Part shown: positions 19,455-47,990 of the stretch, piece after piece
Layout of the letters: every line of letters starts with the position of its first letter
Numbering within the stretch: the first letter of the stretch is position 1
Assembly: GCA_027331445.1 (NCBI GenBank)
Contig: DAHWUD010000001.1
Coordinates: 43,157 to 107,156 of the forward strand
Reading direction: 5' to 3'
Length of the DNA stretch: 64,000 nt
Source: Candidatus Amesbacteria bacterium
GTDB taxonomy: Bacteria > Patescibacteriota > Microgenomatia > CAZETR01 > Amesbacteraceae
Notes under the pieces: model-generated
What the model saw: the letters and a program-made list of their open reading frames with translations, nothing else
Database searches by the model: none
What the model was told of the DNA's origin: nothing
Translations under genes and position numbers: made by a program

Positions 19455-19463
19455 CCCATCCGC

Positions 19464-22024: not shown

Positions 22025-22054
22025 ATAATACTCGCTGGATATAGATCATTATAT
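22024..22054 (+). promoter_or_regulatory. candidate divergent promoter region (TATAAT at 22024-22029) between minus-strand MTase and GT4 gene
   Basis: 31-nt AT-rich intergenic spacer TATAATACTCGCTGGATATAGATCATTATAT between divergent start codons; perfect -10 hexamer; no -35 assessed. Confidence 0.2.
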
Positions 22055-25345: not shown

Positions 25346-25357
25346 TTACCTTTGATT

Positions 25358-26197
25358 CTACGCTTCCCAGAAGCTGTTCTGAATTGACAATTTAGCCAGG
25401 GGATGGAAGTTTTTTGATAAATATTGAGTCAGTCTTTTTACATCGAACGCATCCTCGATTAACATCGTTGCACCATTGTATCTATCAAAAAAATGTTTAG
25501 CCCCTTGTAGTACTTCCACCTCATGCCCCTCTACATCAATCTTAACGAAGACTTTGGATTTGAATTTCAATCGCGGATTTTTGAATATACTGTCGAGCTT
25601 GGCCGTCTTGACGGTAATTTGTTCACTCGTTTTAAAGCTCACAATCATTTTTGCCGGTTTGAAATAGTAAAACCTCTTTAATCCGTCGTGGTTACTTAAG
25701 GCGACGTTAAACAACCGGACATTTTTTAGTTTGTTTTCCCTCACGTTTTTAGAAAGTAGCTTGAAACTCACCGGATCCGGCTCAAACGAAACGGTTTTTA
25801 AGTGAGAGCCATGCGTATTTGCCAATTTAGCAATAGCCACGGTGTATTTACCGAATCCGGCTCCAATATCAATAAATGTCACATCAACCCCTTCGAGGAT
25901 TTCTTTGATTATTAGCGAAATTAATTTATTTATGTCCACTCTTTCAAACGCGGGGGAAGCAGTCTCAATGTCAAACAGCGTTTCCCTGACAAAAAAATTC
26001 CCAAACCTTGTTTTTAGTAATAATTCCTTTGATCGTGTAGTTGTTGCCGATTTAAACTTCAGAAGCGCGTAAAAAAGGAATTCAAATTCATTAATGAATA
26101 CCTTGAATTGATAATTGCGGCATTCAAAAGGGGAAATTAGTTTACAAAATATTAATTGAGGATAAAACCTCAACTTTGATAGTACATCCATCCGCAT
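25358..26197 (-). CDS. FkbM-family methyltransferase
   Basis: FIDIGAGFGKYTVAIAKL ... VKIDVEGHEVEVLQGA, the characteristic FkbM pair of motifs. Confidence 0.7.
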   Translation of the reverse strand: MRMDVLSKLRFYPQLIFCKLISPFECRNYQFKVFINEFEFLFYALLKFKSATTTRSKELLLKTRFGNFFVRETLFDIETASPAFERVDINKLISLIIKEILEGVDVTFIDIGAGFGKYTVAIAKLANTHGSHLKTVSFEPDPVSFKLLSKNVRENKLKNVRLFNVALSNHDGLKRFYYFKPAKMIVSFKTSEQITVKTAKLDSIFKNPRLKFKSKVFVKIDVEGHEVEVLQGAKHFFDRYNGATMLIEDAFDVKRLTQYLSKNFHPLAKLSIQNSFWEA

Positions 26198-26256
26198 AGT
26201 GGGATTTTATCCCAACCATTGGGTTAAAGCCATGTTCCGAGTTATACTTGTAGCCA

Positions 26257-28467
26257 GTGATTTCAGAGAGACGACCGCATAACAAAGCAGTCACCAAATA
26301 TTATCTCCTTGCCCTTGTACTGGTAGTTGTTGTTTCGCATTGGCAGTGGATATTTCAAAATGCATACTATAGCTGGGGTGATGTCCGTTTTCCGGCCCAA
26401 TTTGTTGACACATGGAAGAATTTATTTGTTCTCCCCTCACTCTGGTCGTCATATTACAATGGCTTGGGGGGAATCGACCTTCTTTTATCGTGGTTTCCGT
26501 CTTTTAATGTTGTTTTTGCCGGACTGGCATCCGTTGGCTTAGACTCCAGAGTAGTATTTAGGCTCTTTTACTTGATTCCTATTCCCTTTCTCTCCACCAT
26601 CGGCAGTTTTCTTTTGGCCAGGCACTTTACCAAAAGCAACCTGGCCGGGTTTATTAGTGCCTTGGTATTCTCTTTTAATGTCGGCTTTCTTTTGGCTGAA
26701 ACGGGTAGCCCGACCATCTCATTGGCCGAAGGCCTGGCTCCGCTGATCTTGTTTTCGTATTCCGTCTACCTGAAATCCGGAAAAGCAAAACATGGTTTAT
26801 TAACGGGTTTATTGAGCTTTATTTGTGCTTCTTACGAGTTCCGGATTTTCTACATTATTGCTTTTATTTTGATATTTTATAGCATTTTTTTCCATCTTTT
26901 TGAGCTCAAGATAACCGTTCATAATGCCAGGAGGCGAATTTTTCTGTCTCTGTTGCCGCTGCTGGTAGTTCTGTTTCTCAGCCTCTATTGGATTCTTCCG
27001 CTATTCTTTACCCATAATCTGGCCGGCAATGCCTTGTTTAATCGGAGTTTGTTTGGGGATAAATTTTCATCCCTTAGACAATCAATAGCTTTATTTTCTC
27101 CGTGGTGGACGGGAGGGCACGGCTACGCGGGGGGGGTTGTTCAACCCATTCCCCGGCAGTTTTGGATCATCCCAATTCTCGTCATCTTGGGGTTCGTCGT
27201 CAATATCAAAAACAAATATGTCTATTATTTCGTTTTCCTCAGTTTATTGGGCATCCTGCTTACCAAGCAGTCAGATTATCCTTTCCCGGATTTATACAGC
27301 TGGCTATTCACTCACTTTCCCGGATTCAATGCCTATAGGGAAGCCAGCAAGTTTTTGGTGATTCTTTACCTGGGGTATTCGGTATTGATTGGTTTTTTTG
27401 TTTCCTGGATCGACAGAAATTTCATCAATTCCAAATTTCTTCATTTCTTTAAATTACTCGTAGTGGTAGAAATTGCTTCATTATTCCTGGTAAATGCCAG
27501 GCCCTTTGTCATCGGTAGCATCGGAGGGCTTTTTACACCCAAACACCTGCCAGCGGAGTATCAAACTCTTAAAAATTTCTTGATCTCTGACAGAGAATAT
27601 TATCGAACCCTTTGGATTCCCACCAACAGCCTCTGGGGATATTTTGACAATCTCCACCCGGTAATAAATATGCATACTTCATATTTTGATACCTGGGGAA
27701 ATATCTTTTCCACAAGACCGGATTTTCGGATCATGCCGGACACCAGCAGATACATTACCAACGACAATCATCAGGCTTTCAATTTTCTGTATCAGAACTA
27801 TTCCGCAAACTTGATAAACATCCTCTCGATTAAGTATGTAATTGTGCCGTTAAAAGATACCCAAAACGATGACGACATGTTTGTCAATTACGGGATGAAT
27901 GACAGGCAGTATATTCTGGATTTTCTGAACCGGTTGCCTTTCCTTAAAAAAATAGATATCAACACCCCCCATATTGATGTTTACGAAAACAAGAGTTTTC
28001 GCCCCCTTTTTTATCTTACCGATTCACCCCCCTCAATATTTGACTCAAAACCAGCTTCCTTTTCTGCTGTCGCGTATCAGAGCTTTAGCTCCACCCGGTA
28101 TCTGATTCGGGTAAACCACCTCAAAGATCCCGAAATTCTTAGTTTTTCACAATCGTATTCTCCCGATTGGACTTTATATATGGGAAAAATAAATCCACTG
28201 CTGGCGATTTTCACTTCTAAATCTCTGTCGTCACAAATGCACAGCCAAGCAGATTCCACGTTTAACACTTTTTATTTGTCGCCCGATGAAATAAAAAAAG
28301 ACTTCGCCCCGTCATCGTATCAAACAAACCCTGATGGCAGCATCAATTTTACGGCCACTTTATATTTGAAGAGCCAATCGTATGTTTATTACGGAACGGT
28401 CATGTCCGTAGCCGCTTTGATATCCATCTTGGCATTTTTGATCGTCCTTCCCCGGAATAAGCGTTGA
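26257..28467 (+). CDS. large polytopic membrane protein with C-terminal extracytoplasmic domain (paralog A; putative GT-C)
   Basis: 736 aa; about 13 TMs then soluble domain and a final TM; shares HFPGFNAYREASKF, LWIPT, IKYVIVPL, NTPHIDVYENKSFRP, TNPDGSINFTATLYLK with the ORF at 35137. Confidence 0.5.
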   Translation: MISERRPHNKAVTKYYLLALVLVVVVSHWQWIFQNAYYSWGDVRFPAQFVDTWKNLFVLPSLWSSYYNGLGGIDLLLSWFPSFNVVFAGLASVGLDSRVVFRLFYLIPIPFLSTIGSFLLARHFTKSNLAGFISALVFSFNVGFLLAETGSPTISLAEGLAPLILFSYSVYLKSGKAKHGLLTGLLSFICASYEFRIFYIIAFILIFYSIFFHLFELKITVHNARRRIFLSLLPLLVVLFLSLYWILPLFFTHNLAGNALFNRSLFGDKFSSLRQSIALFSPWWTGGHGYAGGVVQPIPRQFWIIPILVILGFVVNIKNKYVYYFVFLSLLGILLTKQSDYPFPDLYSWLFTHFPGFNAYREASKFLVILYLGYSVLIGFFVSWIDRNFINSKFLHFFKLLVVVEIASLFLVNARPFVIGSIGGLFTPKHLPAEYQTLKNFLISDREYYRTLWIPTNSLWGYFDNLHPVINMHTSYFDTWGNIFSTRPDFRIMPDTSRYITNDNHQAFNFLYQNYSANLINILSIKYVIVPLKDTQNDDDMFVNYGMNDRQYILDFLNRLPFLKKIDINTPHIDVYENKSFRPLFYLTDSPPSIFDSKPASFSAVAYQSFSSTRYLIRVNHLKDPEILSFSQSYSPDWTLYMGKINPLLAIFTSKSLSSQMHSQADSTFNTFYLSPDEIKKDFAPSSYQTNPDGSINFTATLYLKSQSYVYYGTVMSVAALISILAFLIVLPRNKR

Positions 28468-28493
28468 TCTCAGGCATGTAGTACAATTCACCC

Positions 28494-29390
28494 ATGACTT
28501 ACCCGACAAAGGTATTACTCACCGGAAGCACGGGACTTTTGGGGAGAGCCGTTCTGGCCACCGCCCCCGGCAGTTACAAAGTTTTCCCGGTTTTTTCAAA
28601 AAATCCCCCTTTAAATCTTGGTTATAAATTTCTTCAGACGGATATTACAAAGAAAAACGAAGTTAACGCGATATTCGAAAAAGTTAAACCGGATGTGGTT
28701 ATCCACGCCGCTTCAATAGGCAATGTAGACTATTGTGAGAGAAATCAGGAAGAAGCTTTCAAGGTAAACGTCACCGGCACCGAAAACCTGGTCAAACTTT
28801 GCCAAAAAATTGGTTCCCGACTGGTCTTTATTTCCTCGAACGCAGTTTTTGACGGGTTCCACCCGCCATATTCTGAAACTAGTCAGGTAGCCCCGGTAAA
28901 TTGCTACGGTCAAACCAAGGTCGCTGCTGAAAAAATTGTTTCCCAAAGCGGCCTCGACTTTCTCATCATACGTTTTACCCTCATGTACGGATGGAATAAT
29001 TCCAATCAGAGGTCAAATGCCGTTACCTGGCTATTGGACAAGTTGAGAAGAGGCGAGGATGTAAATCTGGTTACCGATACTTATGTCAACCCCGTCTTTA
29101 ATCTTCAGGCTGCTGAATGCCTCTGGAAGGCTCTGTTTTTGGGTAAGACCGGAATCTACCACGTCGGGGGAGGAGAGCGGGTCAATCGCTACCTGCTTGG
29201 TCTGAAAACCGCTCAAGTGTTTGGATTTGAAACCTCGTTTATCAAACCGGTCACAAGCGATTTTTTTCCGGGAATTGCCCAGCGCATGCCGGACACCACC
29301 TTTGATACTTCCCAAATGCAGCGAGAACTCAAAATTCGGCCCCTAAAAATCTTAACCGGTCTGAAAATCATGCGGCATATCAGCATATGA
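28494..29390 (+). CDS. RmlD-like NAD(P)-dependent 4-ketosugar reductase (dTDP-4-dehydrorhamnose reductase family)
   Basis: KVLLTGSTGLLGRAV (Rossmann), KPDVVIHAASIGNVDYCE, SSNAVFDG...YSETSQVAPVNCYGQTKVAAEK (YxxxK), FLIIRFTLMYGW - collinear with E. coli RmlD blocks. Confidence 0.6.
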   Translation: MTYPTKVLLTGSTGLLGRAVLATAPGSYKVFPVFSKNPPLNLGYKFLQTDITKKNEVNAIFEKVKPDVVIHAASIGNVDYCERNQEEAFKVNVTGTENLVKLCQKIGSRLVFISSNAVFDGFHPPYSETSQVAPVNCYGQTKVAAEKIVSQSGLDFLIIRFTLMYGWNNSNQRSNAVTWLLDKLRRGEDVNLVTDTYVNPVFNLQAAECLWKALFLGKTGIYHVGGGERVNRYLLGLKTAQVFGFETSFIKPVTSDFFPGIAQRMPDTTFDTSQMQRELKIRPLKILTGLKIMRHISI

Positions 29391-30592
29391 CAAAAGAGAA
29401 GATTCTATTTGCCCCTATTCACTACTTCTATGGAAAAAACTACGGCAGCGAAATGATCTGTGCCCACGACATTTTTAGCCGTGTGGTCAAACTCCGCCCC
29501 AGGTCTTTAGCCGTCAGCCTTACAAAGCTCGACCAGGAAAACGATACCTCTCACCTTTTATATAAATATTCCATCCCCAAACCCTTTTTTCCGGGTCTAA
29601 TAGACAATTTCAAGTTGATTTTTTTTTATACACGGCACGGACTTTCGCGAATAAGAAAGCACCATTACTCGGTCATCCACCATGTTTTCCCTTTTCGTAT
29701 CGGCCGCACTTTTAATCCGTTGTTCGTTCTCCTTGGGAAAAATATCAACAAAGTAATTGGTCCGGTGATGGTATCAGTAAACTACCCTAATGAAGACCTC
29801 AAAAAAGATTCTTTTTTTGACCTGAACGAAAATCCCATTTCGGCTTTAACTATAAGAGTTCTTGACCCGTTTTTTTCAGTTCTCTGCAAAATGACACTCG
29901 ACAAAGCCAACACGGTGGTAGCTCTGAACGAAACCGCCAAAAGAGAATTAGTGGCCTACGGAGTGCCTTCTCAAAAAATAAAAATAATACCCATCGGCAT
30001 TGATACCCGGAAGTTTACTTACATCCCGTTAAAAGAAAAAGATCGAAAAAACTTTAATCTCCTGACTCTGGGATATCTGACCCGGCGTAAAGGAACAGAG
30101 CTTACTGTCAAAGCCTTGCAGTTGGTAAAAAGAGAATTCCCGAAGGTTCATTTGACCGTTATCGGAGATGGTCCCCAGCGCCGGGAGTTGGAAAATTTAT
30201 CCAGGGAGTTGGATCTGGCAAAAAATGTCACCTTCGCCGGGTTTGTAAATTATGAACGTTTATCACGGGAATATCAGAATTCACACCTTCTGGTCAGTAT
30301 GAGCCGGGCAGAAAGCTGGGGCCAGGTATATATCGATGCCATGGCTTGCGGGCTCCCCGTCATCACCAGCAGGAACGACGGTTCTAATGAAATAGTCATA
30401 AATGGAAAAACGGGCTATTTGGTTGATCAGGAAGACTATGCTTCACTGGCCCGAAAGATTATTAATCTGATTCAACACCCGAAAATTATGAATAGACTTG
30501 GCCACAATGCCAGGCTGGAAGTGGAAAGGAAATACGATTGGGATAAGGTAATTATCCCTGAATACTTGAATATTTACGATAATTTAAAGTGA
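29387..30592 (+). CDS. GT4 family glycosyltransferase
   Basis: LLTLGYLTRRKGTELTVKAL ... ESWGQVYIDAMACGLPVITSRNDGSNEIVINGKTGYLV; ATGA coupling. Confidence 0.7.
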   Translation: MTKEKILFAPIHYFYGKNYGSEMICAHDIFSRVVKLRPRSLAVSLTKLDQENDTSHLLYKYSIPKPFFPGLIDNFKLIFFYTRHGLSRIRKHHYSVIHHVFPFRIGRTFNPLFVLLGKNINKVIGPVMVSVNYPNEDLKKDSFFDLNENPISALTIRVLDPFFSVLCKMTLDKANTVVALNETAKRELVAYGVPSQKIKIIPIGIDTRKFTYIPLKEKDRKNFNLLTLGYLTRRKGTELTVKALQLVKREFPKVHLTVIGDGPQRRELENLSRELDLAKNVTFAGFVNYERLSREYQNSHLLVSMSRAESWGQVYIDAMACGLPVITSRNDGSNEIVINGKTGYLVDQEDYASLARKIINLIQHPKIMNRLGHNARLEVERKYDWDKVIIPEYLNIYDNLK

Positions 30593-30605
30593 CAGTGCTT
30601 CTTCG

Positions 30606-31373
30606 ATGAACGTAATTACTCACAGAGGACTGGAGCCCTCACAAAAAAACTTTCCTCCCGAAAGCAGCCTGGAGGCCTTTAAAAGTCATTTGGAGAGGGG
30701 ATTTGGCATCGAGTTTGACCCTTACTTTACGTCTGGAGACATACTGGTCACCCATAACTTGTCAAAACCCTCACCGTCATTGATTCAGGTTCTGAATTTG
30801 ATTAGAAAACAAGGAAATACGTCTCCCAACGCCTTGCATTTCAAAGGCAAATTTCAAACCTCAAAAAAAACGGATAAGCTACTTAAGATTCTGAGTCTAT
30901 ACCCGGATGTGGTGTCCGGTCTGATAATTTTTGATGTTAAACCGGAAATAGCTCCTATTATTAGATCAAAGTTACCTGCCGTCGGATTGGCTCCTTCAGT
31001 AGCTGATGAATATGACATATCTCGTTACAATTCAGCTGTGTCAGGAACATTACTTTCTGTTTCCGAAGCTATCAGATATAAATCGTATTACGATTGGGCT
31101 TGGCTCGATGAGTGGGACCTCCAAAAACCGGGCGGCCTAAGTAAAAAGTTCTATACTCAAAAAACCTTTTCAACATTAAGACGGGCTGGATATAAAATTG
31201 CGGCAGTCACCCCTGAGTTACATGGCACTTCCCCGGGACTTCTTGGCGGCGAGTTCCACCCAGATTCCCAAACATTACCAGGGCTTATGAAAAGAATTTC
31301 GGAAATCATTTCTCTGCACCCCGATTCCGTCTGCACGGATTATCCTGAGGAAGTTAAAAAACTTATTCTTTAA
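30606..31373 (+). CDS. glycerophosphodiester phosphodiesterase (GDPD/GP-PDE)-like protein
   Basis: MNVITHRGLEP...ESSLEAFKSHLERGFGIEFDPYFTSGDILVTHN matches the HRG...EN...E.D..L..DG..V..HD catalytic N-terminus of GDPD enzymes; C-terminal SVCTDYPEEV. Confidence 0.5.
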   Translation: MNVITHRGLEPSQKNFPPESSLEAFKSHLERGFGIEFDPYFTSGDILVTHNLSKPSPSLIQVLNLIRKQGNTSPNALHFKGKFQTSKKTDKLLKILSLYPDVVSGLIIFDVKPEIAPIIRSKLPAVGLAPSVADEYDISRYNSAVSGTLLSVSEAIRYKSYYDWAWLDEWDLQKPGGLSKKFYTQKTFSTLRRAGYKIAAVTPELHGTSPGLLGGEFHPDSQTLPGLMKRISEIISLHPDSVCTDYPEEVKKLIL

Positions 31374-32082
31374 AATTCGTTTCAAAAAATTTCACATCAT
31401 CCGGGGTTCCCATCTCCCACATGCTTGAAGCTACGGAAATTGAGAGTCGGTCCCCGCGTTCTATCAGTTGGTTATAAACAGGTGCGACATAGTATTCGTT
31501 GTTAACCTTTAATCCCTTTTTTATCATCTCTTCCGCTGCCCAAACAAAGTCTCTCCCGTGGGAAAAATAATAAGCTCCGACATTGGCATATTTTGAAATG
31601 GGTTTCTTTTCGGCGATTTCAACCACCCACCCTCTCTTATCGACCTTCGTAAAACTCCATTTGGGGTCATCGTCTTCAAAAACTAAAATAATTCCCTTGA
31701 CGTCTTTGGGTTTTTTGACGATATCCTCCTCAACGCTTGATTTATAATAGTGGTCAGTATCCATGATTAGCACGTCCTCATCATTATTTATTAAATCCCG
31801 GGCCAGTAATACCGTGCAGGCAGCACCCTCCGTTACATCCGGGGTATAAACAACCTTAATGTTTTTACCCAACAATTTACGCAGCTTGGTTACCAGGCCA
31901 TATTTATCTTCGTGATCTTTTCTTGCGATAAATATAAAATCTGAATGCGGGACCCAGGGAACTGATTCGATAGCTCTTTGTACCATTGGCTTGCCCATTA
32001 CCGGAATAAATGGTTTTGGAGTCGTTATCCCAGCCTTCAAAAATCTCGAACCTCTTCCGGCAATTGGCATGACTACCTTCAT
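31363..32082 (-). CDS. sugar-phosphate (or phospho-alcohol) nucleotidyltransferase, paralog 1
   Basis: VVMPIAGRGSRFLKAGITTPKPFIPVMGKPMVQRAIES - NTP_transferase G-loop; 239 aa; 3' end overlaps convergent + gene by 11 nt. Confidence 0.6.
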   Translation of the reverse strand: MKVVMPIAGRGSRFLKAGITTPKPFIPVMGKPMVQRAIESVPWVPHSDFIFIARKDHEDKYGLVTKLRKLLGKNIKVVYTPDVTEGAACTVLLARDLINNDEDVLIMDTDHYYKSSVEEDIVKKPKDVKGIILVFEDDDPKWSFTKVDKRGWVVEIAEKKPISKYANVGAYYFSHGRDFVWAAEEMIKKGLKVNNEYYVAPVYNQLIERGDRLSISVASSMWEMGTPDDVKFFETNFKE

Positions 32083-32870
32083 ACTTGCACCCTTCTTCCG
32101 ATATAGGCTAAAAATTGAACTAAATCTTCAATTGTCCCCATCCCATGCATAGACCTCGACTTTATGGGGAAAGTCGTCACGTAGCATCCATTCAATATCA
32201 TCTCATTATAAACCGGACATACGTAAAATTCTCCGTTTAGGGAGATGTTTTTTTCCAGCATGGAAAACGCGGATTTAACAAATTCTTTTCCACTTTCAAA
32301 ATAGTATATCCCGGCAGTCGCGTTCTGGGATATAACTTTCTTTTCCGCCGTCTCAATTACTTCCCCTTTTGAATTCGTTTTCGCATAGCTCCACCTGGGG
32401 TGCGATGATTCAAATGTCATTATCACTCCGTCCGCATTGGTTTTTCGGGAAAATAAAATAAACTTATTAATGTCCTCGTCAATATACTGGTCGGAATTTA
32501 CTATCATCAATTCGTCATCGCTGTCTATGTAATCAACCGCTGTTAGCACGGAACACAATGCCCCGCTCGTGGGCCTGACCAGCTTGACTGTCTTATAATT
32601 TCCTTCTGCTGAGACGTTGAATATCTCATACAGAGAGTACTTGTCATAATGTTCGTTTAAACACACAAAAATAAATCTGTGATTACATTTCGGTTTTACG
32701 TTTTCAATAACCCATTGAATCATCGGTTTTCCACCCACGTCAATCAAAGGTTTGGGAAAGGTGTAGCCGGCTTGAGCGAATGTTTTTCCACCACCAGCCA
32801 TGGGTATGACAATGTTCAACGTTTTTGATAATTTCACCCTAACCTCCTTCATATTTGTCTCCTTTAACAC
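32079..32870 (-). CDS. sugar-phosphate nucleotidyltransferase, paralog 2
   Basis: IVIPMAGGGKTFAQAGYTFPKPLIDVGGKPMIQWVIEN; shares EFYVCPVYNEMI / EYYVAPVYNQLI and GT.EDL / GTPDDV blocks with paralog 1. Confidence 0.6.
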   Translation of the reverse strand: MLKETNMKEVRVKLSKTLNIVIPMAGGGKTFAQAGYTFPKPLIDVGGKPMIQWVIENVKPKCNHRFIFVCLNEHYDKYSLYEIFNVSAEGNYKTVKLVRPTSGALCSVLTAVDYIDSDDELMIVNSDQYIDEDINKFILFSRKTNADGVIMTFESSHPRWSYAKTNSKGEVIETAEKKVISQNATAGIYYFESGKEFVKSAFSMLEKNISLNGEFYVCPVYNEMILNGCYVTTFPIKSRSMHGMGTIEDLVQFLAYIGRRVQV

Positions 32871-33162
32871 TGGGGATTTTTATAACCACATTTAAACCAG
32901 ATCTTAAGCAGCTAAACTTCACTTTTTCGCCGGGATTAACTTTAATAATTTGTCCGGGTGCAATATCCGCTTTGTTTATTCGGAAAAGGCCACTTGTCAC
33001 CACCGTGAATTCAGTAGCAACCTTGTGAAAGTGAGTTGGCTCTTCCTCCCCGGTTTTGTATTTTTTGATCGCAATCTCAAAGTGCTTGGTCTTAACCAGT
33101 GTCGGTTTAAAGTCTCCAATGAACCATCCCTTTTTAAACTTTTTGACGGAATATTTCTGCAT
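32839..33162 (-). CDS. small cupin-domain protein
   Basis: 107 aa; EEPTHFHKVATEFTVVTSGLF...PGEKVKF pattern typical of a single cupin barrel. Confidence 0.35.
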   Translation of the reverse strand: MQKYSVKKFKKGWFIGDFKPTLVKTKHFEIAIKKYKTGEEEPTHFHKVATEFTVVTSGLFRINKADIAPGQIIKVNPGEKVKFSCLRSGLNVVIKIPSVKGDKYEGG

Positions 33163-33167
33163 TCCTT

Positions 33168-33827
33168 TTACAGCAGCTTGTGCTTCTCCATCAATGTCAA
33201 ATTAACCTCATGGAATCCTTTCACTTCAATTACCCTGCCCCCCGATGCTTTTGCAGCTTTTATTCCATGAGGAGCATCCTCGATAATCACGGTTTCATTT
33301 GGTTTTACTTTCAAAATTCTGAAAGCAGCTAAATATATATCAGGAGCTGGCTTTGTTTTGTAACCTTCATCATTTCCTAACACCAGATCAAAAAAATGGT
33401 CTATTCCTGATCTTCTTAGCATATTTTCAACGGAATATTTTTGTGCGTTACTGCAGCATGCCAGTTTGTATCCCTTCCTCTTGAGGTGAGTAAGCATAAT
33501 CAGCTTTTCATAAGAAGGTCGACACTTATTTGACACCTCCTCTTCGGTATATCTTTTTTTAAGGGATTTAATAACCGGGTGAATGCCCCACGGAATTTCT
33601 CCCCTTTCGGATAAAATTTTCAACTTTTCTGTAGTCGGCAGACCATTGTAAACTTTCAGGTGTTCTTCTCTTCCAATTTCACTCCCGAATAACCTTAAAG
33701 CCCGATTTAAAGCTTCATAATGCCACTCGGTTGCATCCACCAACACCCCATCTAAATCAAACATGACCGCACTTGTCCGCATCAGACTCATTCTATAATC
33801 ATCACCAACAATATTCAACTTGCCCAA
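33168..33827 (-). CDS. HAD-superfamily hydrolase (subfamily IA, beta-phosphoglucomutase/phosphatase-like)
   Basis: AVMFDLDGVLVDATEWHYEAL (DxDG motif I), LACCSNAQ, VIIEDAPHGIKAAKASG (motif IV). Confidence 0.6.
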   Translation of the reverse strand: MGKLNIVGDDYRMSLMRTSAVMFDLDGVLVDATEWHYEALNRALRLFGSEIGREEHLKVYNGLPTTEKLKILSERGEIPWGIHPVIKSLKKRYTEEEVSNKCRPSYEKLIMLTHLKRKGYKLACCSNAQKYSVENMLRRSGIDHFFDLVLGNDEGYKTKPAPDIYLAAFRILKVKPNETVIIEDAPHGIKAAKASGGRVIEVKGFHEVNLTLMEKHKLL

Positions 33828-33877
33828 ATATCGGTTCTTAAGCTATTAAATAATCAAAAATAATATAGAATAATCTC
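33828..33877. promoter_or_regulatory. candidate divergent promoter region between minus-strand HAD/NT cassette and + strand genes
   Basis: 50-nt AT-rich spacer (…TTAAGCTATTAAATAATCAAAAATAATATAGAATAATCTC) between divergent start codons, contains TATAGAAT -10-like element. Confidence 0.2.
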
Positions 33878-35125
33878 ATGCTCGATCTTTCCGAGGTTAG
33901 CCATGTGATTGGCGCAAATCATTGGTCCGGGGAAATAAACCAGCTTTATCGTCCGTCTTCAATAGTGCCTTCGGAGTCTCAAAATATTGTCTATTTTTTT
34001 AATTCCCTCAGGTCGCCCAAGTACCTCCCTGTCGCCCTGAAAGAATGGTTCTCCTTGGTAAAAGTTACTGGTTACTTGGTTCTTGATTACAAAGAAGGAG
34101 AAGGACTTAGTTGGCAGACGATCGAAGAAAGCATGTGGTGGTTACACAAGGCCCAGTATACGATTGTTTATCACGATACAGTTGCTTGTTCCGCATTTAA
34201 ACCAGTTTCGGAAAAATCGCTTTTTGCCGAAATAAAATCATACTCAAATCGGAACGGATTTGCAGACACCCCTGTTTCCAAAGGCACACTAATGCGCTTT
34301 GTTTGCCAAAAGAACATTTCTTCTCAAATGCCCAGCGATTCAATTGACAAATGGTCGTTTGGAATCATATCCAACGGTCAACGTGATGATTGGACCGCAC
34401 AAATTATAACATCGATTAGAAAACAAAAAATCCCTCATTACGAAATATTAATTTGCGGTAGGTACGGCGGTGACGTCGGGAAAGATACGCGGATTATACC
34501 TTTTTCCGATCGGGACTCCCTGGGATGGATTACCAGGAAGAAGAATCTTCTAGCCCGGGCCTCCCGATATGAAAACCTTTGTCTCTTACACAACCGTATG
34601 TTGTTGGCGGACGGCTGGTATGAGGGCATGAAAAAATGGGGAAACACTTTTGAAGTATTAAACACCATTCAAACCCAAAAAATAAACGGTAAAAGAGGTA
34701 ATTCTTGGGAGGAAACAACCCTCGCCTTTTACCGAAAATTATCAATGTATACGCCGAGAACAATTTTTCATTTCACAGCAAATCTCGATTACAAAGATTG
34801 GGGTAAATACATTATGACCTATGGTCAGTCAATCATTATCAAAAGACGAATCGTGCTTCAGGTCCCGCTGAATGAAACATTATATTGGAAAACGCCGGAA
34901 GACCATTTGTTTTCGTATGACTTGGTTGATAGGGGTTATATTTTGCGTCTGAATCCTTTTAGCGAGCTGATAAATCTTGATTCAAAGAACTGGGGCACCG
35001 ATACTCACTTGTTGTTTTCGCCGACCTCTCGGGGGAGAGAATCTGGCCCATTAGTCAAGGTGGCTTTTAGGACAACCATTCTCTTTATATTATCTAGATT
35101 TAATAAATTGATTCTCAGGACGTAA
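33878..35125 (+). CDS. hypothetical protein, possible GT-A-like central domain
   Basis: 415 aa, soluble; region WSFGIISNGQRDDWTAQIITSIRKQKIPHYEILICG loosely resembles the start of a GT-A domain; no confident family. Confidence 0.3.
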   Translation: MLDLSEVSHVIGANHWSGEINQLYRPSSIVPSESQNIVYFFNSLRSPKYLPVALKEWFSLVKVTGYLVLDYKEGEGLSWQTIEESMWWLHKAQYTIVYHDTVACSAFKPVSEKSLFAEIKSYSNRNGFADTPVSKGTLMRFVCQKNISSQMPSDSIDKWSFGIISNGQRDDWTAQIITSIRKQKIPHYEILICGRYGGDVGKDTRIIPFSDRDSLGWITRKKNLLARASRYENLCLLHNRMLLADGWYEGMKKWGNTFEVLNTIQTQKINGKRGNSWEETTLAFYRKLSMYTPRTIFHFTANLDYKDWGKYIMTYGQSIIIKRRIVLQVPLNETLYWKTPEDHLFSYDLVDRGYILRLNPFSELINLDSKNWGTDTHLLFSPTSRGRESGPLVKVAFRTTILFILSRFNKLILRT

Positions 35126-35136
35126 AATCACTCAAA

Positions 35137-37311
35137 ATGAAACACCTTCTGCAAATATCCAAAAGGCACCTAACTGCTCTTAGTCTCATATTCCTGCTAA
35201 TTATAAATCTTATTGCTTACCATATCTGGTTTTTCGGTACCCCTATCCTTACAAGTGGTGACTGGTGGTTCGCTTACTCGGAGAGTACCCGGGAGTTATT
35301 GACAATCCCCCAACTCTGGACTGCCAACACAAATATCGGCTCTATCAGTCTCGCCCTGACCTTCGCGCCTAAGCTTCTGTTGAATGGGCTCTTGTCAGCC
35401 TACAACATCTCTCCCCAGCTTAACAATGAAATTACCTATCTATGGCCCACTGTGATCCTTTCTTCCATCGGTTACTATTTATTGGGAAAAAAGATCGTCG
35501 GCAGCCATATTGCCGGCATTTTTTCCTCCATCACCTTTTCCTTCAGTGTTATAAACATCGGAATCCGCAGTGGTCATCTTACGTTGGCTACCGCTCACGC
35601 GTTTGCCCCATTCGCACTTTTATGGCTAATCAAGGGTTTCCAGTCCAAAAAATATCAGGATTTCATCATCGCTGGGTTTTGGGGTTATCTGGTCAGTTTC
35701 AATGAGGTTAGGGCTTTTTATGTCTTAGCCATGGCCATGGGAATATGTTATTTATATTACACATTTATTATCGACAAGTTTAAAACAAGATGGGTAATCA
35801 AAAACACACTTTTGTTTGGGATGACTATGGGCATTGCTTTGTTGTTGAACGCGTATTGGTTATTGCCGTTTGCCCTTGTTACTCCTGAACCCAATAGCGG
35901 TTTCGAATTACTCGGTCGGACTTTGTTTGGCGGACCCAATTACAACATTTTGTATAGTTTCACTTCCTGGAACATCTGGTGGACCGGAAAACTACAAGCC
36001 TCCGCAGTTCAGCCTATCCCGATTTATTTTTGGATAATTCCATTTATAGCCTTTCTCGGGCTATTACTGCGCAAAAAGAACCAAAATGTCATATTGTTCG
36101 GACTAATCGCCTTGCTGGGAATGTTTCTTGGCAAGCAGGGAGGCGCCCCCTTTACCAACGTTTATCAATGGCTTTATTCTCATGTTCCTGGTTTTAACGC
36201 GTTTAGGGAAGCCAGCAAGTTCAATTTGTTAATCTTAACAGGATATTCAATAATGATCGGGGCCTTTTTAGATTGGTTATGGAAGAAGACCGTCGTCGCA
36301 CACCAAAAAAAATACCTGGGATTCGCCCTCATATTTTTACTGGGATTCATTTACCTATGGAACGCCAAACCGCTTATCACAGGCGAGATTGGTTCAATTT
36401 TTATTCCCAGACATATTCCACCCCAATATCTGAGTGTAAAATCTTATCTTCAGTCACAGCCTGGATACTTTAAAATTCTTTGGATTCCTACGATTTCGAG
36501 ATGGGGAATTTTTACCAACGACCACCCTTCTTTAAATACAATTGAATTAGTGCAAAGTGACTGGGATTATTTAATTTACAATTATGTTCATAACACCACC
36601 CGCGGCACTGATCAGGGAAAGTTACTATATTTCATCAACCGGTCCGATTTCTCAAACATTTTAAATGACTCATCAATAAAGTACATCATCGTCCCCCTAG
36701 TAGATACAGCCAATGATGATAATTTTTATGTTTACTATGGTAGAAGGGATAAATACATCGATCAGCTTGACCGCAAAGGCTATCTAAAGAAGATTAATAT
36801 CAATACGCCGGGAATTTCCATATATGAAAACACAACCTTTAGACCTCATTTCTACATCACCGCAGACACTCCTTCTCTGGATTCATCACAGCCATACAGC
36901 CCCGTCACATTTTATAGAGTGAATAGTACTCAATATGCGGTCGAGTTGACTAACGTCAGTGGCAAAGAGAGTCTTAACTTTTCGGAAAGGTTCCATCCTG
37001 ACTGGAAAGTCAGAGTTGGAAATTTCTCTTGGTGGCGGGCCATTCTGAGCAGGTCATACTTCCTGCCTGATCGGTTTCACTTCTCGGACGGAACCAGAAT
37101 GAACTCATTCACCATTGATCCTCAATACTTAATTAAAAACTACCCAGCTTCGGTGTCCACCAATCCCGACGGAAGTATAAATGTAAAATTGACTCTCTAT
37201 TTTAAACCTGAGGCCTATGTATACGTTGGCATGATTGTAGCCATGGCTACCTTTCTGGGCGGTGTCTGTTTTATAATATTTCAGAAGAGAAACAAACACG
37301 GCCATGGATAA
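35137..37311 (+). CDS. large polytopic membrane protein with C-terminal extracytoplasmic domain (paralog B of 26257..28467)
   Basis: 724 aa; HVPGFNAFREASKF, ILWIPT, IKYIIVPLVDTANDDNFYVYYG, NTPGISIYENTTFRPHFY, TNPDGSINVKLTLYFK shared with paralog A. Confidence 0.5.
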   Translation: MKHLLQISKRHLTALSLIFLLIINLIAYHIWFFGTPILTSGDWWFAYSESTRELLTIPQLWTANTNIGSISLALTFAPKLLLNGLLSAYNISPQLNNEITYLWPTVILSSIGYYLLGKKIVGSHIAGIFSSITFSFSVINIGIRSGHLTLATAHAFAPFALLWLIKGFQSKKYQDFIIAGFWGYLVSFNEVRAFYVLAMAMGICYLYYTFIIDKFKTRWVIKNTLLFGMTMGIALLLNAYWLLPFALVTPEPNSGFELLGRTLFGGPNYNILYSFTSWNIWWTGKLQASAVQPIPIYFWIIPFIAFLGLLLRKKNQNVILFGLIALLGMFLGKQGGAPFTNVYQWLYSHVPGFNAFREASKFNLLILTGYSIMIGAFLDWLWKKTVVAHQKKYLGFALIFLLGFIYLWNAKPLITGEIGSIFIPRHIPPQYLSVKSYLQSQPGYFKILWIPTISRWGIFTNDHPSLNTIELVQSDWDYLIYNYVHNTTRGTDQGKLLYFINRSDFSNILNDSSIKYIIVPLVDTANDDNFYVYYGRRDKYIDQLDRKGYLKKININTPGISIYENTTFRPHFYITADTPSLDSSQPYSPVTFYRVNSTQYAVELTNVSGKESLNFSERFHPDWKVRVGNFSWWRAILSRSYFLPDRFHFSDGTRMNSFTIDPQYLIKNYPASVSTNPDGSINVKLTLYFKPEAYVYVGMIVAMATFLGGVCFIIFQKRNKHGHG

Positions 37312-38137
37312 AGTATCGATAGTAGTCGCTACCTATAACGAATCGACAAACATCAAAAATCTCCTGTCCTCCTGCTTTTCTCAGAGTTACCCAAATATTG
37401 AAATTGTTCTGGTAGACAGCCTAAAGACGTCAGACTCAACCACTCAGATTGCCCGGAAGTTTACATCTCAGGTCTTCCGTTACGGGCAGGAAAGAAGCGT
37501 TCAAAGAAATTATGGCGCCCTAAAGGCATCTGGAAAATATTTACTGATTTTAGACGCCGATATGCAGATTGATTCTCATGTGGTAGTATCATGCCTTGAA
37601 GTCATCCGTAAACACCCCGACACCCAGGCCGTGATTATCCCTGAGCTATCAATTGGGGAAGGATATTGGGCTAAATGCAAAGCCCTAGAAAGAAACTGTT
37701 ATTTAGGCGACCCCTCAATTGAGGCGCCCAGATTTTTTAGTCGGTCTGCCTTTCTCAAGCTGGGAGGCTATAATCCCCGTATGATCTCCGGTGAAGATTG
37801 GGACCTGCATCGTCGATTCAAGAGAATAGGGGATATCGGCAGAATTTCAAACTTAATTTTTCACAATGAAGGTCGACTCAGCTTACTAAAGGATATCCAA
37901 AAGAAATTCTATTATTCACGAAAATCTTCTGCCTACATTGAATCCAACGTAACTGGAGTAAAGGGAATCTTTCTTTTCCTCTTTAGACCAGCCTTTGTCC
38001 GTAACTGGAAAAAACTATTGAGCGATCCTATCCACTTACCAGGGTTAATTGTTATGAAGTCACTTGAATTTTCAACGGGGGCAATTGCTATTGCCAGTCA
38101 AAGTGCCTTTTGGTCAAAATTATTTAGTTTTTCATAG
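37304..38137 (+). CDS. GT2 family glycosyltransferase
   Basis: VSIVVATYNESTNIKNLLSSCFSQSYPNIEIVLVDS...LLILDADM. Confidence 0.65.
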   Translation: MDKVSIVVATYNESTNIKNLLSSCFSQSYPNIEIVLVDSLKTSDSTTQIARKFTSQVFRYGQERSVQRNYGALKASGKYLLILDADMQIDSHVVVSCLEVIRKHPDTQAVIIPELSIGEGYWAKCKALERNCYLGDPSIEAPRFFSRSAFLKLGGYNPRMISGEDWDLHRRFKRIGDIGRISNLIFHNEGRLSLLKDIQKKFYYSRKSSAYIESNVTGVKGIFLFLFRPAFVRNWKKLLSDPIHLPGLIVMKSLEFSTGAIAIASQSAFWSKLFSFS

Positions 38138-38139
38138 CT

Positions 38140-38835
38140 ATGAAGAACCTCCTTCGAGAAACCCCGAATACCAACTTACATGGACGCCGCTTATACAGTG
38201 TCAACTTTGTTGCCGACAAAGACATTCGCTCAAAGAAAATTTTGGACATCGGCTGCGGATTTGGGTGGTGTGAGGTTAACTTCTTAAACCGCGGGGTTGG
38301 GGAAATTGTCGCCACCGAAATCTCCACAGCAGACTTGAATGCCATACGCTCTGGCCTTAAACATCCCAGGTTAAAAACCCGGGTGGCCAGCGCCCTGAAT
38401 CTCCCTTTTACAGCTAACATTTTTGACACGGTCGTTTGCTGGGAAGTCATCGAACACCTCCCCTTTCATACCGAAAATGAAATGTTCTCCCAAATATTTC
38501 GGGTTCTAAAACCCGGTGGCTCATTTTATCTGTCAACCCCGTTTGCCCATCCCATCTCCATGTTGTCAGATCCTGCCTGGTTATTAATTCATCATCGCCA
38601 TTATTCCCAGGAACAATTATCTTCTTACGGGAGACAACACGGCTTTATTACGGAAGAAGTTTTTACTCGCGGTCGGAATTGGGAAGCCATTTTCATCTTG
38701 GACCTATATTTTTCCAAGTGGTTCCTCCGTCACCCTCCGCTTCTTGGCGATTTTTTAGACCGTCGGATTGATATAGAATACAAACTACCGGGGTACATAG
38801 GCATTTTTGTAAAATATCGTAAACCATACAAATGA
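38140..38835 (+). CDS. class I SAM-dependent methyltransferase
   Basis: ILDIGCGFGWCEV, FDTVVCWEVIEHL, LKPGGSFYLSTP. Confidence 0.7.
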   Translation: MKNLLRETPNTNLHGRRLYSVNFVADKDIRSKKILDIGCGFGWCEVNFLNRGVGEIVATEISTADLNAIRSGLKHPRLKTRVASALNLPFTANIFDTVVCWEVIEHLPFHTENEMFSQIFRVLKPGGSFYLSTPFAHPISMLSDPAWLLIHHRHYSQEQLSSYGRQHGFITEEVFTRGRNWEAIFILDLYFSKWFLRHPPLLGDFLDRRIDIEYKLPGYIGIFVKYRKPYK

Positions 38836-41535: not shown

Positions 41536-41537
41536 CA

Positions 41538-43444: not shown

Positions 43445-43445
43445 T

Positions 43446-44126: not shown

Positions 44127-44134
44127 TTGTCGTC

Positions 44135-47967: not shown

Positions 47968-47990
47968 GGCATTTCTCATATAATGGCCTG

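What the first reader, a model, noticed from the sequence alone, without database searches (positions are those of the whole stretch)
26257..37311. Pair of about 730-aa polytopic membrane-protein paralogs of unrecognised family
ORFs 26257..28467 and 35137..37311 are clear paralogs. Shared blocks include H[FV]PGFNA[YF]REASKF, [TI]LWIPT, IKY[VI]IVPL, NTP.I..YEN..FRP.FY and TNPDGSIN....LY[LF]K.

Both have the same architecture: about 13 N-terminal TM helices, a roughly 300-aa extracytoplasmic domain and a final TM. This resembles GT-C transferases, but they lack the PMT, YfhO and other signatures I can recognise.

They sit about 9 kb apart inside the low-GC island, each followed by soluble GT or SDR genes. 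They are candidates for a novel GT-C family or a glycan polymerase.
Basis: seen in the sequence. Interest (0 to 1): 0.65.

Follow-up and report, generated by a model that had tools for sequence, protein, structure and literature searches.

The report
Two mini-AftD-like GT-C glycosyltransferase paralogs
The two ~730-residue membrane proteins are real, anciently duplicated paralogs from a large, unnamed family found mostly in candidate-phyla-radiation bacteria; they are stripped-down relatives of the mycobacterial cell-wall enzyme AftD and of YfhO, so they most likely add sugars from a lipid carrier to a surface glycan outside the cell.

Summary
ORFs 26257..28467 and 35137..37311 are full-length paralogs (34% identity, E 3e-131), and every quoted motif is present. 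Neither hits any Pfam family. The only NCBIfam match is weak, to MmpA, which is itself an AftD N-terminal homolog.

The topology is 11 TM helices, a 287-aa outside domain and one final TM helix, not about 13 N-terminal helices. A loop-1 Asp (D42) is conserved in 194 of 197 relatives. The invariant [E/D]194-x-R196, K337 and R361-E362 also face outward.

The family is large (about 2,000 clusters at E<=1e-30), is found mostly in Patescibacteria and always sits in surface-glycan clusters. Polyprenyl-phosphate sugar synthase-like GT2 genes lie nearby in 27 of 73 loci.

Best reading: these are extracytoplasmic glycosyltransferases that use polyprenyl-phosphate sugars. Donor and acceptor are unknown. 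This is an unnamed lineage of a known superfamily and is of moderate interest.

The parts
26257..28467 (+). ORF A, 736 aa: mini-AftD-like GT-C protein (paralog 1)
26257..27513 (+). ORF A residues 1-419: GT-C membrane module, proposed 11 TM helices, N-terminus in the cytoplasm
   Evidence: DSSP helices. Positive-inside analysis: cytoplasmic loops have K+R density 0.28-0.41 and outside loops 0.01-0.10. AftD TM1-11 form the GT-C fold. The topology is inferred.
26380..26382 (+). ORF A D42 codon: candidate catalytic Asp in the first outside loop (motif G-D)
   Evidence: D in 194/197 family representatives. Aligns with the 'GGD' of PF11847-type proteins. Lies at about the position of the essential AftD D41. 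A catalytic Asp after TM1 is general in GT-C enzymes.
26836..26844 (+). ORF A E194-F195-R196: invariant [E/D]-x-R at the proposed outside junction of TM5 and TM6
   Evidence: Position 194 is E or D in 204/204 and R196 is conserved in 204/204. Outside placement comes from the topology and is inferred.
27265..27354 (+). ORF A K337-F366: most conserved block (KQ..PF..Y.WL..FPGFNAYREASKF), proposed outside loop EL5
   Evidence: K337 204/204, P342 204/204, F357 204/204, R361 204/204, E362 196 E + 6 D, K365 201/204. This is the region that gives the weak MmpA hit. It aligns with 'LAKG..PFG..PGFW.FREPFAKF' of the AftD-type clade.
27514..28374 (+). ORF A residues 420-706: extracytoplasmic domain, an AftD-type soluble GT-C alpha/beta domain plus a beta-sandwich
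28375..28446 (+). ORF A residues 707-730: final TM helix that re-enters the membrane, followed by a basic cytoplasmic tail
   Evidence: Hydropathy peak 2.56. Helix 707-730. C-terminal tail K+R density 0.36. Analogous to AftD TM12.
35137..37311 (+). ORF B, 724 aa: paralog 2, same architecture
   Evidence: Carries D42, E190/R192, K333, R357/E358/K361 and H463 at the aligned positions (read).
35260..35262 (+). ORF B D42 codon (motif TSGDWWF)
   Evidence: Read from the translation. Same alignment column as ORF A D42.
36133..36222 (+). ORF B K333-F362: conserved EL5 block
   Evidence: Alignment and conservation.
36382..37209 (+). ORF B residues ~416-691: extracytoplasmic domain
   Evidence: Co-linear alignment with the ORF A domain. 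Boundaries inferred from ORF A.
37210..37287 (+). ORF B residues ~692-717: final TM helix
   Evidence: Hydropathy segment 693-717, peak 2.44.
48738..49445 (-). Context: GT2 of the polyprenyl/dolichyl-phosphate sugar synthase type ('DADLEYDP' motif), a candidate maker of the lipid-linked donor
   Evidence: Pfam GT2 1.4e-31. The five best NCBIfam matches are AglJ, ArnC, PpgS, PgfS and dolichyl-P hexose transferase, all below cutoff. Relatives lie within 6 kb of the family gene in 27/73 loci. The functional link is inferred.
17398..18648 (+). Context: Wzx/MOP-type flippase (a second copy is at 50738..51997)
   Evidence: Polysacc_synt 5e-16 and 7e-19.
33878..35125 (+). Context: 415-aa soluble ORF with no family, ending 11 nt upstream of ORF B; the adjacency is conserved in Amesbacteria
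   Evidence: No Pfam or NCBIfam hit. Same order in L054 and L018.
37304..38137 (+). Context: Leloir-type GT2 overlapping the end of ORF B by 8 nt (translational coupling likely)
   Evidence: The same FAM>GT2 order is seen in L002, L004, L005 and L054.
44135..45235 (+). Context: 366-aa membrane ORF ('TM366') with no family, a recurrent downstream partner of this family elsewhere
   Evidence: Its homolog lies immediately downstream of the family gene in 16/73 loci.

Best explanation
ORF A and ORF B are two anciently diverged paralogs of an unnamed family, found mostly in Patescibacteria, within the AftD/YfhO branch of GT-C glycosyltransferases. Each has an 11-helix GT-C membrane module, an AftD-type soluble alpha/beta domain plus a beta-sandwich on the outer face, and a final TM helix. 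They lack AftD's three carbohydrate-binding modules and its ACP-binding TM13-16 bundle. Proposed mechanism: a cytoplasmic GT2 of the DPM1/ArnC/PgfS type loads a monosaccharide onto polyprenyl phosphate. The lipid-linked sugar is flipped across the membrane. The GT-C enzyme then transfers the sugar, on the outer face, to the surface glycan assembled by the surrounding GT4/GT2/methyltransferase/Wzx cluster. In this scheme D42 in the first outside loop acts as catalytic base, and the outward-facing invariant [E/D]194-x-R196, K337, R361-E362-K365 and H467 bind the phosphate and sugar. The two paralogs would install different sugars or linkages. Shown here: the fold, the homology, the residue conservation and the genomic context. 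Inferred: catalytic activity, lipid-monophosphate donor, glycan acceptor and the role of each residue.
Against: There is no biochemical evidence for any member. Equivalents of the essential AftD residues E251 and D474 could not be identified; the region aligned to D474 carries a conserved H-P instead of an acidic residue. The GT2 genes immediately next to ORF A and ORF B look like ordinary Leloir enzymes, and the candidate lipid-donor synthase lies about 11 kb away. No GtrA-type small flippase was recognised. Only 27/73 loci show a donor-synthase-like GT2 within 6 kb. The residue mapping to AftD goes through sequence profiles, not a 3-D superposition. YfhO-type enzymes can also glycosylate proteins, so the acceptor class is open.
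Confidence: 0.7

Rival explanations
1. Protein O-glycosyltransferases: the same GT-C chemistry with a polyprenyl-P-sugar donor, but the acceptor is Ser/Thr-rich regions of surface or membrane proteins (pili, S-layer), as for the streptococcal YfhO-type enzymes PgfM1 and PgtC2.
For: The family is homologous to YfhO. YfhO-family PgfM1/PgtC2 glycosylate Ser/Thr-rich regions together with PgfS/GtrB. The GT2 next to Saccharibacteria family members matches PgfS over its full length (201 bits, below cutoff).
Against: The family is much closer to the AftD-type clade, which acts on a polysaccharide (E 1.8e-67 against 1.5e-19). Long forms carry CBM_4_9 carbohydrate-binding modules. The genes sit in multi-GT/Wzx clusters typical of polysaccharide synthesis. 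No candidate Ser/Thr-rich acceptor gene was noted nearby, though this was not searched systematically.
Confidence: 0.18
2. Oligosaccharyltransferase-like enzymes: en bloc transfer of the cluster's Wzx-flipped polyprenyl-diphosphate oligosaccharide to protein or cell wall, as done by PglB, AglB and STT3.
Against: The outside domain of either ORF has no WWDxG motif (read). Sequence homology is to AftD and YfhO, not to STT3; Pfam STT3 does not hit even at E<=10. The OST alignments cover only 410-425 residues, against 563 for AftD. A Wzy_C-type ligase/polymerase gene is present separately in the window.
Confidence: 0.08
3. Non-catalytic scaffold or lipid-handling factor, like mycobacterial MmpA (an AftD N-terminal homolog needed for trehalose-lipid acetylation and transport, with no demonstrated transferase activity).
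For: The only direct HMM hit of either ORF is to NCBIfam MmpA (E 5e-6). MmpA is proposed to act as a membrane anchor or scaffold.
Against: The hit scores 25 bits against a cutoff of 210 and covers only the conserved EL5 block. The near-absolute conservation of outward-facing charged residues, including the loop-1 Asp, is what an active site predicts. Patescibacteria are not known to make mycolate lipids (my own knowledge).
Confidence: 0.04
4. Transporter, flippase or Wzy-type polymerase rather than a GT-C transferase.
For: The proteins are polytopic membrane proteins in a polysaccharide locus. One long homolog was named 'O-antigen polymerase' by a submitter (P0059).
Against: Transporters appear in Foldseek only at E>0.2 with TM-scores near 0.1. 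P0059 has no Wzy or other Pfam domain. Dedicated Wzx genes (two) and a Wzy_C gene are present in the window.
Confidence: 0.02

Closest known systems
AftD (mycobacterial arabinofuranosyltransferase D; Pfam PF11847 GT-C_AftD, formerly DUF3367; PDB 6W98/6WBX)
   Same: AftD is the best structural match for both the whole protein and the outside domain. The family shows full-length profile homology to PF11847-labelled proteins. Shared features: an 11-TM GT-C module, a conserved Asp just after TM1, a conserved Trp in the long loop EL4 (W284, about AftD W272), a conserved Lys in EL5 (K337, probably AftD K361), a soluble alpha/beta GT-C domain plus a beta-sandwich, and re-entry into the membrane through a further TM helix.
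   Different: The proteins are about half the size of AftD. They have no CBM1-3 and no TM13-16 ACP-binding bundle. They do not reach the PF11847 model even at E<=10. No clear equivalents of E251 or D474 were found. They occur in Patescibacteria, not Mycobacteriales. No UbiA-type or DprE-type family matched any ORF scanned in the window, so arabinofuranose is not implied.
YfhO family (PF09586; B. subtilis/S. aureus/Listeria YfhO, streptococcal PgfM1 and PgtC2)
   Same: The overall layout is the same: a polytopic GT-C N-terminus, a roughly 300-aa outside domain and a C-terminal TM helix. Co-linear profile homology is Prob 99.2%, E 1.5e-19. The C-terminal motifs 'VYxN..P..Y' and 'sYdPgW' are shared. 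YfhO enzymes work in three-component systems with a GT2 polyprenyl-P sugar synthase.
   Different: The YfhO Pfam model does not hit either ORF. The N-terminal ~100 residues are not aligned. A genuine YfhO homolog is encoded separately in the same window (1285..3543). YfhO is a Firmicutes-centred family.
MmpA (NCBIfam NF053599; Rv0226c / NCgl2761)
   Same: MmpA is an AftD-N-terminal-like 11-TM protein with one outside domain. It gives the only direct HMM hit, over the conserved EL5 block.
   Different: The hit scores 25 bits against a cutoff of 210. MmpA is about 474-576 aa and functions in trehalose corynomycolate acetylation and transport, with no shown transferase activity. It is restricted to Corynebacterineae.
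Three-component extracytoplasmic glycosylation systems (GtrA/GtrB/GtrC; CsbB/GtcA/YfhO; the GT136 pentofuranose system)
   Same: The predicted logic is the same: a GT2 or related synthase makes polyprenyl-P-sugar, a flippase moves it across the membrane, and a GT-C enzyme with a catalytic Asp after TM1 transfers it, sometimes aided by a CBM. ArnC/PgfS-like GT2 genes lie near family members.
   Different: No GtrA-type flippase was recognised here. The donor synthase is not adjacent in this window. The GT-C component belongs to a different family from GtrC, PMT_2 and GT136.

Membership tests
GT-C fold glycosyltransferase superfamily | Polytopic membrane module with the GT-C fold | tested here: met
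GT-C fold glycosyltransferase superfamily | Conserved acidic residue in the first extracytoplasmic loop after TM1 | tested here: met
   D42 is conserved in 194/197 diverse representatives and is present in both ORFs. The general rule is stated.
GT-C fold glycosyltransferase superfamily | Conserved polar residues and the soluble domain face the extracytoplasmic side | tested here: met
   Positive-inside analysis over 38 homologs supports N-in, 11 TM, domain out, TM12, C-in. This is a computational inference only.
GT-C fold glycosyltransferase superfamily | Uses a lipid-phosphate-linked sugar donor | not testable with these tools
   Only indirect evidence: polyprenyl-P sugar synthase-like GT2 in the window and in 27/73 loci.
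Pfam PF11847 GT-C_AftD (DUF3367) | Match to the family HMM above the gathering threshold | tested here: not met
   Neither ORF gives a hit even at E<=10. The bridging protein P0205 scores 47 bits against a cutoff of 26.
Pfam PF11847 GT-C_AftD (DUF3367) | Demonstrable homology to family members | tested here: met
   hhalign Prob 100%, E 1.8e-67, 663 columns against a 32-sequence PF11847 profile. That profile hits AftD 6W98 at 8.6e-23.
AftD proper (arabinofuranosyltransferase D) | Three CBMs and the C-terminal TM13-16 ACP-binding bundle | tested here: not met
   The proteins are 736 and 724 aa, with a single 287-aa outside domain and one final TM helix. The AftD architecture is described.
AftD proper (arabinofuranosyltransferase D) | Essential residues K39, D41, E251, K361, D474 | tested here: inconclusive
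   A D41 equivalent (D42) is present, and the W272 and probable K361 equivalents (W284, K337) are invariant. K39 is not conserved. No equivalents of E251 or D474 were found; the D474 region carries H467-P468. The mapping is through profiles, not a 3-D superposition.
AftD proper (arabinofuranosyltransferase D) | Decaprenyl-phosphate arabinose donor pathway (UbiA-type phosphoribosyltransferase, DprE1/DprE2) | tested here: not met
   No such Pfam family matched any ORF of the window that was scanned. The rest of the genome is unknown.
Pfam PF09586 YfhO | Match to the family HMM | tested here: not met
   No hit at E<=10, whereas window ORF 1285..3543 hits at 6e-19.
Pfam PF09586 YfhO | Architecture (GT-C N-terminus, outside domain, C-terminal TM) and remote homology | tested here: met
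   hhalign Prob 99.2%, E 1.5e-19, 531 columns. Topology.
Oligosaccharyltransferases (STT3/PglB/AglB) | WWDxG motif in the soluble domain and a match to the STT3 family | tested here: not met
   No WWDxG in residues 420-706 of ORF A or the aligned part of ORF B (read). No STT3 Pfam hit. The resemblance is structural only.
Wzy / O-antigen polymerase-ligase (PF04932 and relatives) | Match to Wzy-type models | tested here: not met
   No hit for either ORF or for P0059, the homolog named 'O-antigen polymerase'. A separate Wzy_C gene lies at 60841..62190.
NCBIfam NF053599 MmpA | Score above the curated cutoff (210 bits) over the whole model | tested here: not met
   25 bits, covering only model positions ~253-415 of 543.

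The most novel reading that the evidence does not exclude
Patescibacteria carry a large, previously unnamed radiation of minimal AftD-like GT-C enzymes, often in several copies per very small genome. These enzymes may polymerise or branch a major cell-surface glycan outside the membrane from polyprenyl-phosphate sugars. That would be an arabinan-style extracytoplasmic assembly line operating outside the Actinobacteria, possibly with an unusual methylated sugar donor and a dedicated partner (the TM366-type protein).
Probability: 0.25. Interest if true: 0.6.

Novelty: new variant of a known kind. Interest (0 to 1): 0.4.

Why it matters
AftD-type enzymes are studied almost only as mycobacterial arabinan builders, and YfhO-type enzymes as Firmicute teichoic-acid or protein glycosylases. 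This finding shows a third lineage between them, unnamed in Pfam and NCBIfam. It has about 2,000 representative clusters at E<=1e-30 and is concentrated in Patescibacteria, whose cell-surface chemistry is essentially unknown even though it mediates attachment to their hosts.

The family gives a concrete handle on that chemistry: conserved residues to mutate, conserved partner genes, and an ortholog in the cultured Minisyncoccus archaeiphilus. It also gives annotation pipelines a reason to create a model for proteins now labelled 'hypothetical'. It does not reveal a new kind of chemistry.

Tried and rejected
Direct HMM scans (Pfam and NCBIfam at E<=10) and sequence or profile searches of PDB chains with ORF A and with the family profile gave nothing usable apart from the weak MmpA hit.

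The bridging protein P0205 alone did not hit PDB sequences. A 32-sequence PF11847 profile was needed.

The afdb50 Foldseek library was unavailable, so closer annotated AlphaFold relatives could not be listed.

The PMC copy of the AftD paper was not held, so the bioRxiv version was used.

Literature searches for Patescibacteria + GT-C, DUF3367, Saccharibacteria + arabinofuranosyltransferase, and CPR + YfhO found no description of this family.

Transporter and Wzy-polymerase readings were rejected on fold and HMM evidence.

The naive helix count (12 helices before the outside domain) was rejected. It would put the domain and all conserved loops in the cytoplasm and violates the positive-inside rule. 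Helix 75-92 is better read as an amphipathic helix of loop EL1.

Exact residue-by-residue mapping onto AftD E251 and D474 could not be completed, because model coordinates and structural alignments are not exposed by the tools.

Several reference loci are titled 'uncultured Gammaproteobacteria', 'Bdellovibrionales' or 'Bacteroidia'. I treated these as probable mislabelled Patescibacteria bins because their synteny matches Levybacteria and Moranbacteria loci, but I did not verify this.

Full report
**1. Observation**

BLASTP between them gives 34% identity over 713 columns with E 3e-131. All five quoted motif blocks are present in both translations.

Both lie in a block of lower GC. GC is 0.40-0.46 between about 20 and 46 kb and 0.48-0.57 in the flanks. 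ORF A is followed after 26 nt by an RmlD-like SDR and then a GT4. ORF B starts 11 nt after a 415-aa ORF with no family and overlaps a GT2 by 8 nt.

**2. Direct family scans**

Neither protein hits any Pfam-A family, even at E<=10. The only NCBIfam match is a partial 25-bit hit (cutoff 210) to MmpA over residues ~300-470. phmmer and a family-profile hmmsearch against all PDB chains return nothing. 'Unrecognised family' is therefore correct for routine annotation. NCBI and the other sources carry both proteins without a name.

**3. Size and distribution of the family**

A word-indexed search found 65 relatives. All lack Pfam domains except for CBM_4_9 on some forms of 1,000-1,270 aa, and the named sources are Woesebacteria, Zambryskibacteria and 'Patescibacteria group'.

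An exhaustive profile search of 1.84 billion cluster representatives found 11,103 hits at E<=1e-3, 6,079 at E<=1e-10 and 2,056 at E<=1e-30. The weaker tail certainly includes neighbouring GT-C families.

A scan of one genome per species returned 77 loci. Nearly all are titled as Patescibacteria lineages: Woese-, Ames-, Levy-, Moran-, Doudna-, Andersen-, Falkow-, Wirth-, Peri-, Roizman- and Absconditabacteria, WWE3, Saccharibacteria, and the cultured Minisyncoccus archaeiphilus. Two caveats apply. The scan used a single peptide pattern. Some automated assemblies carry other taxon labels, which I did not verify.

**4. Structure**

An AlphaFold2 model of ORF A built on a 38-sequence alignment is confident (mean pLDDT 91.0, pTM 0.90).

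- Foldseek against the PDB: the first 26 hits are all GT-C glycosyltransferases. AftD is best (E 1e-8, query TM-score 0.50), followed by the STT3/PglB/AglB oligosaccharyltransferases, DPY19, AftA, Pmt4, Emb and ALG9. Transporters appear only at E>0.2 with TM-scores near 0.1.

The outside part is therefore the AftD-type soluble GT-C alpha/beta domain plus a beta-sandwich.

**5. Sequence homology to known families**

Searching with the family alignment reached proteins that carry PF11847 (P0205, E 9e-40), PF10131 PTPS_related (1e-7) and PF09586 YfhO (8e-6 and 9e-5). PF11847 is now named GT-C_AftD, and P0205 passes its threshold (47 bits against 26).

| hhalign: family profile against | Probability | E-value | Columns |
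|---|---|---|---|
| P0205 (single PF11847-labelled protein) | 99.7% | 2.5e-26 | 529 |
| 32-sequence profile of PF11847-labelled Patescibacteria proteins | 100% | 1.8e-67 | 663 |
| Window's own YfhO protein (1285..3543) | 77% | 2e-5 | 530 |
| Three-sequence YfhO profile | 99.2% | 1.5e-19 | 531 |

The match to the PF11847 profile runs from residue 10 to the final TM helix, and the extra central domains of the larger proteins appear as insertions. That PF11847 profile hits the solved AftD chain at 8.6e-23.

The MmpA hit fits the same picture. MmpA/Rv0226c was reported to share partial homology with the N-terminal ~668 residues of AftD and to have 11 TM helices.

The family is thus a divergent lineage inside the AftD/YfhO branch of GT-C. 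It is nearest to the AftD-type clade but falls outside every curated model.

**6. Topology and candidate active site**

The model shows 12 helices before the outside domain. Counting all of them as TM helices would put the domain and every conserved loop in the cytoplasm.

Across the 38-sequence alignment, K+R density is 0.28-0.41 in loops 122-127, 173-179, 216-226, 316-319 and 389-392 and in both termini. It is 0.01-0.10 in the alternate loops, apart from the 3-residue EL3, which contains the invariant R196. This fits the following topology:

- N-terminus in the cytoplasm, then TM1.
- A long outside loop EL1 (34-96) whose helix 75-92 is amphipathic rather than membrane-spanning.
- Ten further TM helices.
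- The outside domain, then TM12 (707-730) and a basic cytoplasmic tail.

This is the AftD core plan: 11 TM helices, EL4 between TM7 and TM8, EL5 between TM9 and TM10, and re-entry through TM12.

Conservation over about 200 diverse representatives:

| Position (ORF A numbering) | Conservation |
|---|---|
| D42 | 194/197 |
| 194 | E or D in 204/204 |
| R196 | 204/204 |
| W284 | 203/204 |
| K337 | 204/204 |
| R361 | 204/204 |
| E362 | 196 E + 6 D of 204 |
| K365 | 201/204 |
| H467 | 159/204, with K in 26 |

All of these lie in predicted outside loops or the outside domain. ORF B carries every one of them at the aligned positions.

D42 follows TM1, as does the proposed catalytic Asp of solved GT-C enzymes, and it sits at about the position of the essential AftD D41. 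Through the PF11847 profile, W284 corresponds to the 100%-conserved AftD W272, and K337 probably to the essential K361. I could not identify equivalents of E251 or D474. These correspondences rest on sequence profiles and are inferences.

**7. Genomic context**

The whole 64-kb window is devoted to glycan biosynthesis. It contains:

- one YfhO gene;
- eight PMT_2/PTPS_related-like GT-C genes, six of them in a tandem run between 3518 and 14464;
- the two family members;
- two Wzx flippases and a Wzy_C gene;
- many GT4 and GT2 genes and at least nine methyltransferases;
- a UDP-GlcNAc 2-epimerase, an RmlD-like reductase, two nucleotidyltransferases and a HAD phosphatase.

Across 73 reference loci, a GT2 lies within four genes of the family gene in 46 and a GT4 in 44. 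A homolog of the window's 366-aa membrane ORF lies immediately downstream in 16. A second family copy lies within 14 kb in 17.

A GT2 with the 'DxDLQxDP' motif and two C-terminal TM helices lies in 27/73 loci. It matches ArnC and PgfS over their full length at 162-202 bits, below the curated cutoffs. The window's version at 48738..49445 has its five best NCBIfam matches among polyprenyl- or dolichyl-phosphate sugar synthases. The GT2 genes immediately next to ORF A and ORF B look like ordinary Leloir enzymes.

The block from ORF A to beyond ORF B is syntenic with an Amesbacteria contig. ORF A is 40-45% identical to one copy in Amesbacteria and Woesebacteria, and ORF B is 45-48% identical to the other. 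Both figures exceed the 34% identity between A and B. The duplication is therefore old and both copies have been maintained, which suggests different specificities.

**8. Mechanism**

The characterised relatives all transfer single sugars from polyprenyl monophosphate on the outer face of the membrane:

- AftD transfers arabinofuranose to arabinan.
- YfhO transfers GlcNAc to teichoic acids.
- PgfM1 and PgtC2 transfer GalNAc or Glc to Ser/Thr-rich protein regions.

By homology, conserved outward-facing residues and context, I propose the same three-step logic here. A DPM1/ArnC/PgfS-type GT2 makes polyprenyl-P-sugar, the sugar is flipped, and ORF A or ORF B transfers it to the exported product of the cluster with D42 as the base.

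A glycan acceptor is favoured for two reasons. The family is closer to the AftD-type clade than to YfhO. Long family members carry CBM_4_9 modules. A protein acceptor cannot be excluded. Fold, homology, conservation and synteny are shown here; activity, donor, acceptor and residue roles are inferred.

**9. Rivals**

- **Protein O-glycosyltransferase:** same chemistry with a different acceptor. This remains plausible.
- **OST-like en bloc transfer:** has structural resemblance only. There is no WWDxG motif and no STT3 homology.
- **MmpA-like scaffold:** fits poorly with an intact, near-invariant candidate active site.
- **Transporter or Wzy polymerase:** excluded by fold, and dedicated Wzx and Wzy_C genes are present nearby.

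**10. Novelty and verdict**

This is not a new kind of system. It is a GT-C glycosyltransferase lineage related to AftD and YfhO. It is, however, a large, coherent family found mostly in Patescibacteria that no curated model recognises and no paper I could find describes. Its architecture is a minimal form of AftD.

I rate it a new variant of a known kind, with interest 0.4. 'Novel family' is only partly right, and the TM count should be 11 + 1.

Noticed in passing
window 1..64000: The entire 64-kb window is glycan-biosynthesis genes, almost all on the + strand. It holds at least 11 recognisable GT-C genes, two Wzx, one Wzy_C, many GT4/GT2 genes and at least nine methyltransferases. That is a very large share of what is probably a small (~1 Mb) Patescibacteria genome.
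   Followed up: partly
window 3518..14464: A tandem run of six ~530-550-aa paralogous GT-C genes, with weak PMT_2 hits and one PTPS_related hit, interrupted by a 415-aa polytopic ORF with no family (5170..6417).
   Followed up: no
window 44135..45235: A 366-aa membrane ORF (N-terminal TM helix, ~170-aa outside domain, five C-terminal TM helices) with no Pfam or NCBIfam hit. Its homologs lie immediately downstream of the family gene in 16/73 reference loci, so it may be a dedicated partner.
   Followed up: partly
window 33878..35125: A 415-aa soluble ORF with no family hit ends 11 nt upstream of ORF B. The same adjacency is conserved in two Amesbacteria loci, L054 and L018.
   Followed up: partly
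L063:5710-12173 (also L055, L059, L064, L066, L068, L070): Saccharibacteria loci pair a long family member (~1,240 aa, with CBM_4_9) with a short one (~555 aa, apparently lacking the C-terminal beta-sandwich and final TM helix). The two are separated by a polysaccharide pyruvyl transferase and preceded by Wzx, a PgfS-like GT2, and GT4/GT2/GT4 genes.
   Followed up: partly
L045:2194-4222 (also L030, L039, L046, L047, L069): Moranbacteria loci have a conserved string: family gene, a ~560-aa single-TM secreted protein, a ~113-aa protein with 3-4 TM helices (a possible small flippase, no Pfam hit), an ArnC-like GT2, then a UDP-Glc/GDP-Man dehydrogenase.
   Followed up: partly
L012:2446-4638 (also L017, L019, L072, L073): Another ~730-770-aa polytopic protein sits two genes upstream of the family gene. 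It has only a weak DUF6541 hit and similar motifs (IKYIILD, 'LRATYRF'). It may be a further distant GT-C relative in the same clusters.
   Followed up: no
window 19464..21314, 46456..47967, 71..1288, 62187..63626: Further large ORFs with no Pfam or NCBIfam family. Three were checked and are polytopic (616 aa with about 13 hydrophobic peaks, 503 aa, 405 aa). The 479-aa ORF at 62187..63626 was scanned against NCBIfam only and not checked for TM helices. Homologs of the 616- and 503-aa ORFs recur near family members in other loci.
   Followed up: no
window 30606..31373: A 255-aa ORF with no Pfam hit at 1e-3. By eye its N-terminus (ITHRGL...PPESSLEAF...GIEFD) resembles the glycerophosphodiester phosphodiesterase motif. 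Homologs recur next to the nucleotidyltransferase pair in Amesbacteria.
   Followed up: no
window 1..64000: The + strand shows strong, uniform pyrimidine skew in the flanks (AT skew down to -0.41, GC skew about -0.13 to -0.23), which relaxes inside the low-GC block at 22-44 kb. The low-GC block is syntenic with Amesbacteria contig LCOA01000001, so it may be an exchanged glycan island.
   Followed up: partly
L040 list of loci: Many automated third-party assemblies that carry this family are titled 'uncultured Gammaproteobacteria', 'Bdellovibrionales' or 'Bacteroidia', yet their synteny matches Levybacteria and Moranbacteria loci (for example, L022 matches L006). These are probably taxonomic mislabels of Patescibacteria bins.
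   Followed up: no
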